Shown here one piece after another: positions 19,475-21,288 of a stretch of 64,000 bases of DNA. Under the pieces are notes generated by a model. It worked only from the letters and a program-made list of their open reading frames with translations. It was not told the origin of the DNA and made no database searches. Position 1 is the first letter of the stretch, and each line of letters starts with the position of its first letter. The stretch lies in NCBI RefSeq assembly GCF_016026235.1, contig NZ_CP065613.1; one strand, written 5' to 3'. The position numbers were made by a program, and so were the translations under genes. The stretch comes from Escherichia coli (lineage in GTDB: Bacteria; Pseudomonadota; Gammaproteobacteria; Enterobacterales; Enterobacteriaceae).

Positions 19475-19783
<309 letters not shown>

Positions 19784-19797
19784 TCTCTTCCATGCAG

Positions 19798-19823
19798 AGG
19801 CGCCGCAAGGCGCCTTATTTTTT
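19798..19823 (+). terminator. zapB intrinsic terminator
   Basis: Hairpin aggcgcc-gcaa-ggcgcct then tattttttac. Confidence 0.85.
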
Positions 19824-20538
19824 ACTTCACTGTATTTTTAGCAGACAACATAATCTCCATCGCCTGTTGGCGATATTTATCTGCCGTATCTGGCTCCATT
19901 AATGCAATGATCCCCACAGCCCTGGGGGTGTCTTCAAGATAAACACTGATGGTTCTTTTCTGCTGACCATCAAAATTTATCAACACATCCTGATACTTAC
20001 AGGTGAAATGTTTGGCATTACAATCATGAAACTGGAAGGTTTCTTCATTGTATTGATCCTTGAGATTGTCTCGCTGCATCTTCTTTAACTCTTCCAGCGA
20101 GTCATCGGCGCTACGTCCTGCGGGCAGGCGGAAAGCAGAAATAAAGACGCTATTATCTTCACTTCTTATATCAATGGTTTTATCAGTACTAATAGAAACC
20201 GTATTCCAGTGTCGGTTTGGGACAGTCACGGAAATAGCTGCCTTCTCAAACGTATAGTGCCACGGGGTGAACAGACGAAACGTATTGCCGACGTTGGATA
20301 AAAGCAGGACTCCCAATACCCAACAGCACCCGCGAGTAAAACTGGCGAAGTTACGCGTTTTTTTAGTGAATGTGCACAGAATACCTGACACAAGCACGGG
20401 AAGTAATAACGGCCCAAGAAGTACTGAACCGATATACTCGCCAACCATCCCAGGATCTCCAGTAAGCAAGTTACTGTGCTGAAGATGACTAAGAAAAATG
20501 GTTATTATCCATAGTATTAATAAGATAACGTATCTCAT
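19822..20538 (-). CDS. Uncharacterised integral membrane protein, islet paralog B (3 predicted TM helices plus ~150-aa C-terminal domain with CX6C pair)
   Basis: 238-aa ORF; hydrophobic segments near residues 3-18, 34-56, 70-84; about one-third identical to the upstream ORF; AT-rich; not part of the K-12 gene order as recalled. Confidence 0.75.
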   Translation of the reverse strand: MRYVILLILWIITIFLSHLQHSNLLTGDPGMVGEYIGSVLLGPLLLPVLVSGILCTFTKKTRNFASFTRGCCWVLGVLLLSNVGNTFRLFTPWHYTFEKAAISVTVPNRHWNTVSISTDKTIDIRSEDNSVFISAFRLPAGRSADDSLEELKKMQRDNLKDQYNEETFQFHDCNAKHFTCKYQDVLINFDGQQKRTISVYLEDTPRAVGIIALMEPDTADKYRQQAMEIMLSAKNTVK

Positions 20539-20570
20539 ATCAATCCATTATTATTAACATGCACATCAGA

Positions 20571-21257
20571 TCATTGACGAGCAGAAAGCATCATTTTCAT
20601 TACTTCTTCTTGATATTCGTCCAAATAATCTGGGTCGATAGCTGCGACCAGTTGTATCAAATTAGTGTTATCCAGTAGAGTCATGAAAATAGCATGTCTT
20701 ACTTTGCCATCACTCATTGTTTGCACTCCTTCCTGATAAGCGCAGGCAAATCCCTGAACATCACAAACATGCATTTCTGCAGTTCCGTTTTGAGTCGCGG
20801 TAAGTTCCTCGATTGAATGCACACCGAGTTCATTTTGTGAGAAGGCAACAATAGCTAAAATAGCATGGGCATCCCGGGTCACCAGGGTTGGTCCTTGTTT
20901 TACTATATTGGCAACCCACTGTTTGCTCGGAACCGTGACGGTGATACCTGGCTCCGGGAAAGTATAATCCCATATGCTGTGTCGTTCCCACACCGTATAG
21001 CTGCTATAGATAAGAAATAATCCCATTAACCAACAAGTGCCGCGAATAAAGCTGCGGCTGCTTCTTTTTTTTATCGTTATACAGATTATTGTGGCGATAA
21101 TAAATGATAAGGCAAGTGGGTTAAAAAATACGTTAGCAAAATATAAAATCATTTCACCCGCGTTGCCAGATAAAAGAAATTTGTAGCGGAAATGGTTAAC
21201 GGCTATAAGTAATAAATATATAAATAAAAGAATAATATTCTGCATGAATACGTCCAT
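20571..21257 (-). CDS. Uncharacterised integral membrane protein, islet paralog A (3 predicted TM helices plus ~150-aa C-terminal domain with CX6C pair)
   Basis: 228-aa ORF; alternative start at ATG 21245 (MQNIILL...) has a slightly better GGA spacer; paralogous to 19822..20538; AT-rich. Confidence 0.75.
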   Translation of the reverse strand: MDVFMQNIILLFIYLLLIAVNHFRYKFLLSGNAGEMILYFANVFFNPLALSFIIATIICITIKKRSSRSFIRGTCWLMGLFLIYSSYTVWERHSIWDYTFPEPGITVTVPSKQWVANIVKQGPTLVTRDAHAILAIVAFSQNELGVHSIEELTATQNGTAEMHVCDVQGFACAYQEGVQTMSDGKVRHAIFMTLLDNTNLIQLVAAIDPDYLDEYQEEVMKMMLSARQ

Positions 21258-21263
21258 GTATAA

Positions 21264-21288
21264 AAAAGGGGAATTTAATTCCCCTTTT
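21264..21288 (-). terminator. rraA intrinsic terminator (bidirectional hairpin)
   Basis: Perfect 11-bp stem aaaaggggaat-tta-attcccctttt; on the minus-strand transcript it is followed by a U-tract. Confidence 0.8.

What the first reader, a model, noticed from the sequence alone, without database searches (positions are those of the whole stretch)
19822..21257. Tandem paralogous 3-TM membrane proteins with a conserved C-terminal CX6C domain: candidate immunity or envelope-defence pair
The two islet ORFs (228 and 238 aa) are clearly paralogous, roughly one-third identical by eye. Shared blocks include RG(C/T)CW, WxYTF, (I/A)(S/T)VTVP, a CX6C pair (FHDCNAKHFTCKYQ versus HVCDVQGFACAYQ) and a C-terminal PDxxDxYxxxxMxxMLSA(K/R). 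Each has three N-terminal hydrophobic helices with a basic loop (KKTR / KKRSSR) between TM2 and TM3, which by the positive-inside rule puts the ~150-aa C-terminal domain in the periplasm, where the cysteine pair could form a disulfide. I do not recognise the family. Small tandem arrays of diverged membrane-anchored paralogs in AT-rich islets are characteristic of orphan immunity genes for polymorphic toxins (CDI, T6SS, colicin-like) or superinfection-exclusion functions; that assignment is a hypothesis only.
Basis: inference. Interest (0 to 1): 0.75.

Follow-up and report, generated by a model that had tools for sequence, protein, structure and literature searches.

The report
Membrane-anchored periplasmic PsbP/DcrB-fold paralog pair
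Two real, uncharacterised E. coli genes (ECs4854/ECs4855 in O157:H7) encode inner-membrane proteins that display a disulfide-stapled PsbP/DcrB-type binding domain in the periplasm. They are old chromosomal residents next to rraA rather than a mobile toxin-immunity islet, so they are a modest new family, not a defence system.

Summary

The family is very small (19 representatives among 1.84 billion proteins) and confined to a few Enterobacteriaceae. In every locus recovered it lies just downstream of rraA, even where the zapB side is rearranged. It occurs in 679 of 5426 complete E. coli genomes, always chromosomal, and never in phages or true plasmids. dS equals that of the flanking genes and omega is 0.1-0.34, so the genes are vertically inherited and under purifying selection. 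No toxin, Rhs, CDI, T6SS or phage gene is adjacent in any lineage.

The predicted topology and disulfide are supported. The orphan-immunity or exclusion reading is not supported, though the shared fold does not exclude it. My best reading is a non-catalytic, membrane-tethered periplasmic binding module, DcrB-like in logic, with an unknown partner. Interest is modest.

The parts
19822..20538 (-). Gene A (238 aa; ECs4854 in Sakai; RefSeq WP_000232687.1 is an N-truncated 208-aa model). It has 3 TM helices plus a PsbP/DcrB-fold domain.
   Evidence: ORF; annotation; AlphaFold pLDDT 83.9, pTM 0.70; omega 0.11-0.23 against Escherichia orthologues, including codons 1-30.
20269..20538 (-). Gene A membrane region (residues 1-90): TM1, an acidic periplasmic loop, TM2, the basic cytoplasmic loop KKTRNFASFTR, and TM3.
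   Evidence: Hydropathy; helices 2-25, 29-57, 64-90; charge counts.
19825..20268 (-). Gene A C-terminal domain (residues 91-238), Mog1/PsbP/DUF1795-type fold, predicted to be periplasmic.
19999..20022 (-). Gene A CX6C (C173...C180), facing each other across a beta-hairpin; a candidate cross-strand disulfide.
   Evidence: Invariant in 12/12 sequences; strands 171-175 and 178-189 with a 2-residue turn.
20539..20570 (-). 32-bp spacer between B and A with a weak GGA Shine-Dalgarno motif; implies co-transcription.
   Evidence: Sequence; no promoter-like site there.
20571..21245 (-). Gene B (224 aa from the conserved start; ECs4855, WP_001301616.1). The maximal ORF extends to 21257. Same architecture as A.
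   Evidence: AlphaFold pLDDT 84.3; omega 0.34 (C-domain 0.63).
20742..20765 (-). Gene B CX6C (C161...C168 in 224-aa numbering).
21260..21284 (-). rraA intrinsic terminator (GGGGAATTAAATTCCCC plus a T-run) immediately upstream of gene B; conserved in E. albertii and Kluyvera.
19797..19816 (.). GC-rich hairpin between the gene A stop and the zapB stop. It scores as a terminator for zapB on the + strand; on the minus strand it lacks a T-run.

Best explanation
A and B are paralogous inner-membrane proteins with an N-in/C-out topology. Three TM helices lead, almost without a linker, into a ~145-residue periplasmic domain of the Mog1/PsbP/DUF1795 (DcrB-like) fold, stapled by a cross-strand disulfide. 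This fold has no known catalytic members. Its extracytoplasmic members act as docking or binding modules on membrane complexes: DcrB on the enterobacterial inner membrane, LpqN in mycobacteria, PsbP/CyanoP on photosystem II. I therefore propose that A and B are non-catalytic, membrane-tethered periplasmic binding or adaptor modules. In this view they engage an envelope partner (protein or lipid) at the outer face of the inner membrane, possibly as an A/B hetero-oligomer formed through their conserved TM helices. Genetically they are an old, dispensable, slowly decaying accessory pair inherited vertically next to rraA and lost from most E. coli, not a mobile toxin-linked module. Shown: gene reality, paralogy, fold, purifying selection, synteny and distribution. 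Inferred: topology, the disulfide, the binding function and oligomerisation. The partner is unknown.
Against: There is no sequence-level link to any characterised family, so the function rests on fold analogy alone. The fold also houses immunity proteins and chaperones. No partner, expression data or phenotype is available, and no paper mentions the genes. No recognisable promoter precedes gene B, whose start lies about 15-25 nt after the rraA terminator. AT-richness, patchy distribution, the higher omega of B's periplasmic domain (0.63, from 16 nonsynonymous and 7 synonymous changes) and truncated or IS-disrupted copies fit a conflict-type or dispensable gene at least as well as a housekeeping accessory.
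Confidence: 0.5

Rival explanations
1. Orphan immunity proteins. The periplasmic domain (and/or the TM bundle) binds and neutralises an incoming periplasm- or membrane-acting toxin, such as a T6SS amidase, muramidase or lipase effector or a pore-forming colicin. The genes are retained without a cognate toxin gene.
Against: No toxin, Rhs, CdiA, T6SS or colicin gene is adjacent in any lineage. The genes are never on plasmids or phages. They have been inherited vertically at one locus across genera. There is no PADLOC hit. Overall omega is below 1. Closer structural neighbours are not immunity proteins. Known Tsi/Tli proteins are signal-peptide or lipoprotein-anchored, not 3-TM proteins.
Confidence: 0.2
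2. A function coupled to the menA-rraA unit. The proteins would be made by read-through of rraA transcription and act on a membrane process linked to menaquinone or redox (the cross-strand disulfide serving as a redox-sensitive element) or to stationary-phase physiology.
For: The gene has been linked to menA-rraA in the same orientation across at least five genera and through a rearrangement of the other flank. In E. coli and L003 gene B starts about 60 nt after the rraA stop with no promoter-like site. The cross-strand Cys pair is invariant, and a conserved Cys cluster lies at the cytoplasmic face of TM2/TM3.
Against: A strong conserved intrinsic terminator separates rraA from the gene. In Atlantibacter an opposite-strand lipoprotein gene intervenes. 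In E. albertii and Kluyvera a ~230-bp AT-rich spacer suggests an independent promoter. Most enterobacteria with menA-rraA lack the family. Synteny can be explained by vertical descent alone.
Confidence: 0.1
3. Phage-related function: superinfection exclusion, or masking or acting as an inner-membrane entry factor, by analogy with DcrB's old link to phage C1 adsorption.
For: The proteins are small membrane proteins with a periplasmic domain. Four weak BFVD matches hit phage 'lipoprotein' or 'host cell surface-exposed lipoprotein' models (E about 1e-5, TM-score at most 0.41). The distribution is patchy.
Against: There is no PHROG hit, no tblastn hit in 50,697 phage genomes and no prophage context in the window or in any homologous locus adjacent to the gene. 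The gene is inherited vertically.
Confidence: 0.07
4. Non-functional relics: decaying ORFs with no current role.
For: No promoter was found. GC3 is low in all lineages. Truncated or IS-interrupted copies exist in some E. coli and Shigella. The genes have been lost from about 87% of E. coli genomes.
Against: omega is 0.11-0.34 with intact frames across species separated by dS of 0.12-0.35. Cys, Pro and Trp residues stay invariant at 25-50% identity across three clades. Both proteins give confident AlphaFold folds.
Confidence: 0.03

Closest known systems
DcrB (enterobacterial inner-membrane lipoprotein, DUF1795/PF08786, PDB 6e8a)
   Different: DcrB is anchored by a lipidated N-terminal Cys on a flexible tether, whereas A and B are anchored by three conserved TM helices with almost no linker. 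There is no detectable sequence similarity (Pfam PF08786 not matched). DcrB lacks the CX6C hairpin motif. DcrB is core in E. coli, while A and B are accessory.
PsbP / CyanoP and PsbP-like (PPL, PNSL) lumenal proteins
   Different: They belong to photosynthetic systems and are soluble or lipid-anchored rather than polytopic. There is no sequence match to Pfam PsbP.
T6SS periplasmic immunity proteins Tsi3, TplEi and the Tli4_C-domain protein PA3488
   Different: Those are encoded next to their effector within T6SS/vgrG clusters and carry signal peptides or lipoboxes. A and B have neither an adjacent effector nor that targeting, and there is no significant sequence similarity (best E=1.1).
Eag (DUF1795) T6SS chaperones EagT6/PA0094 and SciW
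   Different: Eag proteins are soluble, cytoplasmic and encoded upstream of prePAAR/Rhs effectors. A and B are membrane proteins with a predicted periplasmic domain and no effector neighbour.
Polytopic TM plus PsbP-like domain proteins of Firmicutes and others (e.g. 'RDD family protein' entries in AFDB)
   Same: Whole-length Foldseek alignments (about 230-240 columns, TM-score about 0.5, E about 1e-8 to 1e-9) show the same overall design of N-terminal TM helices followed by an extracytoplasmic PsbP-like domain.
   Different: They share only 10-16% identity, have different TM families (the RDD motif is absent here; Pfam finds nothing) and are themselves uncharacterised.

Membership tests
Mog1/PsbP/DUF1795 fold superfamily | Antiparallel beta-sheet flanked by helices, superposable on known members | tested here: met
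Pfam DUF1795 (PF08786) / PsbP (PF01789) sequence families | Significant HMM match | tested here: not met
   No such hit for A, B or any of 10 family members. Profile searches against PDB sequences gave nothing significant. A UniRef label 'DUF1795 domain-containing' exists for two members but could not be reproduced with Pfam here.
DcrB | Signal peptide with a lipobox Cys (lipoprotein anchor) | tested here: not met
   The N-terminus is MRYVILL... followed by three TM helices, with no lipobox.
DcrB | Domain located at the periplasmic face of the inner membrane | tested here: inconclusive
   This is prediction only. It rests on the positive-inside rule across 12 sequences and an invariant Cys pair positioned for a disulfide. 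Fusion or alkylation experiments are needed.
T6SS/CDI/colicin immunity proteins | Encoded adjacent to, or in an array with, a cognate toxin or toxin C-terminal fragment | tested here: not met
   The window and about ten homologous loci have only housekeeping neighbours. The Sakai Rhs element about 8 kb away is absent from the window.
T6SS/CDI/colicin immunity proteins | Binds and neutralises a toxin | not testable with these tools
   Requires competition or binding assays.
Pore-forming colicin immunity proteins (3-4 TM) | Pfam colicin-immunity match, plasmid-borne next to a colicin gene | tested here: not met
   No Pfam hit. The only PLSDB hit is a 4.9-Mb record, i.e. a chromosome.
Eag T6SS chaperones | Soluble cytoplasmic protein encoded upstream of a prePAAR/Rhs/VgrG effector | tested here: not met
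   Three TM helices are present and there is no effector neighbour.
Known anti-phage defence systems / phage proteins | Match to PADLOC or PHROG models, or presence in phage genomes | tested here: not met
   PADLOC gave none. The best PHROG hit has E=0.15. tblastn against phages found no match. BFVD gave only four weak matches.
Horizontally acquired genomic islet | Divergence decoupled from the flanks, mobility genes or repeats at the borders, variable location | tested here: not met
   dS of A and B (0.12-0.35) is about equal to the flanks (0.12-0.31). There are no flanking repeats. The location is the same in all 679 E. coli genomes and in other genera. Low GC3 is the only islet-like trait.

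The most novel reading that the evidence does not exclude
The periplasm-facing, Eag-like (DUF1795-fold) domain sits directly on the inner membrane and could act as a trap for foreign transmembrane helices. It would capture the N-terminal TM domains of incoming prePAAR/Rhs-type T6SS effectors, or the hydrophobic hairpins of pore-forming colicins, as they try to insert from the periplasmic side. That would give toxin-domain-independent immunity that needs no linked toxin gene. The strained cross-strand disulfide could make this capture redox-gated.
Probability: 0.05. Interest if true: 0.8.

Novelty: new variant of a known kind. Interest (0 to 1): 0.3.

Why it matters
The pair is among the chromosomal genes that separate O157:H7/O55:H7/O145, Shigella, E. 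albertii and some other E. coli lineages from K-12. It has no annotation and no literature. Assigning it to the PsbP/DcrB fold with a new three-helix anchor gives a concrete, testable starting point: topology, disulfide, partner search, dcrB/yciB genetics, and competition and phage assays. It also corrects a RefSeq start-codon error that removes a transmembrane helix and would invert the predicted topology. Finally, it is a cautionary example: an AT-rich, patchy, tandem-paralog 'islet' can be an ancient, vertically inherited locus undergoing repeated loss rather than a mobile defence or immunity cassette.

Tried and rejected
- **Sequence libraries:** Pfam, NCBIfam, PADLOC and PHROGs gave nothing significant on either protein or on all family members.
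- **PDB profile searches:** Full-length and C-domain profiles found only noise: MrpD TM bias at E=0.024, MxiH at E=0.5, Tli4_C at E=1.1.
- **Bridging to DUF1795:** A profile search of 5.8 billion proteins with the C-domain alignment recovered only the same family.
- **Species-representative genome scan:** The first attempt failed because no conserved block was available. The second, limited by its peptide patterns, found only Escherichia species.
- **Deletion scar:** Aligning the K-12-type empty-site spacer to either end of the occupied allele scored no better than shuffles, so the direction of the event cannot be read from the junctions.
- **Other features:** No flanking repeats, no Rfam RNA, and no sigma-70-like promoter for gene B.
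- **Rhs link:** A link to the Sakai Rhs element was considered and rejected because the window lacks that element.
- **Literature:** Searches on locus tags and accessions found nothing.
- **Model coordinates:** The disulfide geometry is inferred from the strand register only.

Full report
**Locus.** The window is an Escherichia coli chromosome segment, 100% identical over the tested 2.5 kb to strain FDAARGOS_943 and 99.7% to O157:H7. The finding lies between the convergent genes zapB (+ strand) and rraA (- strand). The gene order is glpK-glpF-zapB-[A][B]-rraA-menA-hslU-hslV. In O157:H7 Sakai the genes are ECs_4854 and ECs_4855, both annotated 'hypothetical protein'. No paper in the searchable library mentions them.

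**Observation check.**
- Gene A (19822-20538, minus strand, 238 aa) and gene B (20571-21257 as the maximal ORF) are present.
- BLASTP between them gives 30% identity and E=4e-32.
- The family alignment shows every homologue starting M(R/K)(Y/F)(I/V)(I/L). Gene B therefore begins at its fifth codon (21245, 224 aa, as PGAP calls it), and gene A begins at 20538.
- PGAP's 208-aa model of A starts at M31 and deletes TM1. The paralog alignment extends upstream of M31, and codons 1-30 show omega of 0.08-0.17, so the long form is the real one.

**Architecture.**
- AlphaFold2 on a 10-12 sequence alignment gives confident models: A has pLDDT 83.9 and pTM 0.70; B has pLDDT 84.3 and pTM 0.65.
- Both have three long helices followed, after a 2-3 residue turn, by a beta-sheet domain with two helices.
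- Across 12 family members the TM2-TM3 loop averages 3.9 Lys+Arg and no acidic residue. The TM1-TM2 loop averages 0.2 basic and 1.8 acidic residues. This predicts N-in/C-out with the C-domain in the periplasm.
- The two invariant cysteines (A: C173 and C180; B: C161 and C168) lie on adjacent strands of a hairpin with a two-residue turn, directly opposite each other. That geometry fits a cross-strand disulfide.
- Conserved TM residues (P43, W73, G76, L79 and a TM2 Cys in 10/12) suggest the helices do more than anchor the protein.

**Fold.**
- Beyond self and family members, Foldseek on AFDB50 returns hundreds of 'PsbP C-terminal' or 'DUF1795' proteins. Some of these have N-terminal TM regions or RDD domains aligned over the whole length.
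- At the sequence level nothing links the family to these: Pfam, NCBIfam, PADLOC, PHROGs and PDB profile searches were all negative.
- A profile search of 5.8 billion proteins found no bridging sequences.

**Family size and spread.**
- An exhaustive phmmer search over 1.84 billion cluster representatives found 19 hits, about eight of them full length.
- Named sources are E. coli, Shigella, E. albertii, E. whittamii, cryptic Escherichia clades, Atlantibacter subterraneus, Kluyvera ascorbata, Pseudocitrobacter cyperus and Klebsiella oxytoca.
- A neighbour-joining tree separates an A-type clade, a B-type clade and a third Kluyvera-type clade.
- The A/B tandem also exists in an unnamed enterobacterium (L003, housekeeping proteins 94-97.5% identical to E. 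coli). The duplication is therefore old.
- E. albertii, E. whittamii and one cryptic clade carry only A.

**Context and evolution.**
- In every locus with upstream sequence, the gene follows rraA in the same orientation. Atlantibacter has one opposite-strand lipoprotein gene in between.
- In Kluyvera and the P0041 lineage the other flank is pfkA-fieF-cpxP instead of zapB-glp. The linkage is therefore to hslVU-menA-rraA and has survived a rearrangement.
- No toxin, Rhs, CdiA, T6SS or phage gene neighbours the gene in any of these loci. A P2-like prophage in L026 lies beyond pfkA-fieF and is not adjacent.
- The Rhs element that Sakai carries between rpmE and yiiX is absent from this window, so it is not linked.
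- Within E. coli the pair occurs in 679 of 5426 complete genomes, always chromosomal and at one place. There are 415 alleles at 99% identity or more (the O157:H7/O55:H7/O145 lineage), 245 at 95-99% and 19 at 90-95%.
- Neither protein has a tblastn hit in 50,697 phage records. The only 'plasmid' hit is a 4.9-Mb record.
- Nei-Gojobori estimates against three other Escherichia species give omega of 0.11-0.23 for A and 0.34 for B (0.63 in B's C-domain, from small counts). Flanking genes give 0.006-0.04.
- dS for A and B (0.12-0.35) matches the flanks (0.12-0.31). The genes are therefore functional, evolve 5-40 times faster than their neighbours at the protein level, and have co-diverged with the locus.
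- With that rate ratio, the 30-50% identity between genera (against 90-97% for RraA and HslU) needs no horizontal transfer.
- GC3 is low in every lineage (0.25-0.50 against 0.51-0.68 for the flanks). This is the one islet-like property. It may reflect weak expression or AT-biased drift, but it remains unexplained.
- There are no border repeats. The empty-site spacer cannot be aligned to the occupied allele.

**Expression.** The conserved rraA intrinsic terminator (21284-21260) ends about 15-25 nt before gene B's start. No sigma-70-like site was found. In E. albertii and Kluyvera a ~230-bp AT-rich spacer precedes the single gene. How B and A are transcribed in E. coli is open.

**Interpretation.**
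- The most economical reading is a membrane-tethered, non-catalytic periplasmic binding module. It is analogous in logic to DcrB, a periplasmic inner-membrane Mog1p/PsbP-family protein that acts with YciB in membrane homeostasis (PMC7716261, PMC9487459). Here the anchor is a novel three-helix bundle and the domain carries a disulfide staple. The partner is unknown (confidence about 0.5).
It survives only through the shared fold and the relatively fast evolution (about 0.2 for immunity, about 0.07 for a phage-related role).
- A functional tie to menA-rraA is possible (about 0.1).
- Relic status is unlikely given the purifying selection (about 0.03).

**Verdict.** The feature is real and the anatomy was correctly described. 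The family is a new, narrowly distributed variant within a known fold superfamily. The defence or immunity label is unsupported. Interest is modest at 0.3.

Noticed in passing
window 20449-20538 (codons 1-30 of gene A): RefSeq/PGAP annotates gene A as 208 aa (WP_000232687.1), starting at M31 and omitting TM1. Homologue and paralog alignments and an omega of 0.08-0.17 for codons 1-30 support the 238-aa form. The truncated model would invert the predicted topology.
   Followed up: yes
window 21245-21284: Gene B's conserved ATG lies only about 15-25 nt downstream of the rraA intrinsic terminator, and no sigma-70-like promoter was detected. The same terminator is conserved in E. albertii and Kluyvera, where a ~230-bp AT-rich spacer follows instead.
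   Followed up: partly
window 19767-19795: A 14-nt inverted repeat (13/14 complementary) spans the zapB stop codon (GCATGGAAGAGGTT / AATCTCTTCCATGC), next to the GC-rich hairpin at 19797-19816. The occupied allele also changes the stop codons of both zapB (TAA instead of TGA) and rraA (TAA instead of TGA) relative to the empty site.
   Followed up: partly
gene A residues C55, C71, C72 (window about 20323-20376); gene B C55, C71 in 224-aa numbering: A Cys near the cytoplasmic end of TM2 is conserved in 10/12 homologues, and one or two Cys at the cytoplasmic start of TM3 in 6-7/12. This cytoplasmic-face cysteine cluster has no explanation.
   Followed up: no
L024 29004-34331 (E. coli O157:H7 Sakai): Sakai carries an Rhs element (ECs_4864 plus small ORFs and IS1) between rpmE and yiiX, about 8 kb from the pair. 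The window and FDAARGOS_943 have rpmE directly followed by yiiX, so the two features are independent.
   Followed up: yes
L003 8748-9500 and 9761-10072: The A-type copy in this unnamed enterobacterium has an SQLSQLSQLSQ repeat insertion at the TM3/domain junction. A REP-associated tyrosine transposase (Y1_Tnp) gene lies between the pair and zapB.
   Followed up: no
L010 8001-8717 (Atlantibacter subterraneus): This copy has 33% GC and GC3 of 0.25, next to flanking genes with GC3 of 0.64-0.68. It is separated from rraA by an opposite-strand Lipoprotein_9 (NlpA/MetQ-like) gene. It is the most foreign-looking member of the family.
   Followed up: no
P0017 (Shigella dysenteriae), P0012/P0015 clusters (E. 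coli): Some lineages carry truncated copies or a copy fused to or interrupted by an IS transposase, which indicates ongoing decay and dispensability.
   Followed up: no
L026 11084-16720: P2-like prophage tail genes (Ogr/Delta, gpD, gpU, tape measure, tube, sheath) are inserted next to fieF in one metagenomic relative. They lie three genes away from the family member and are absent from the sister contig L027.
   Followed up: no
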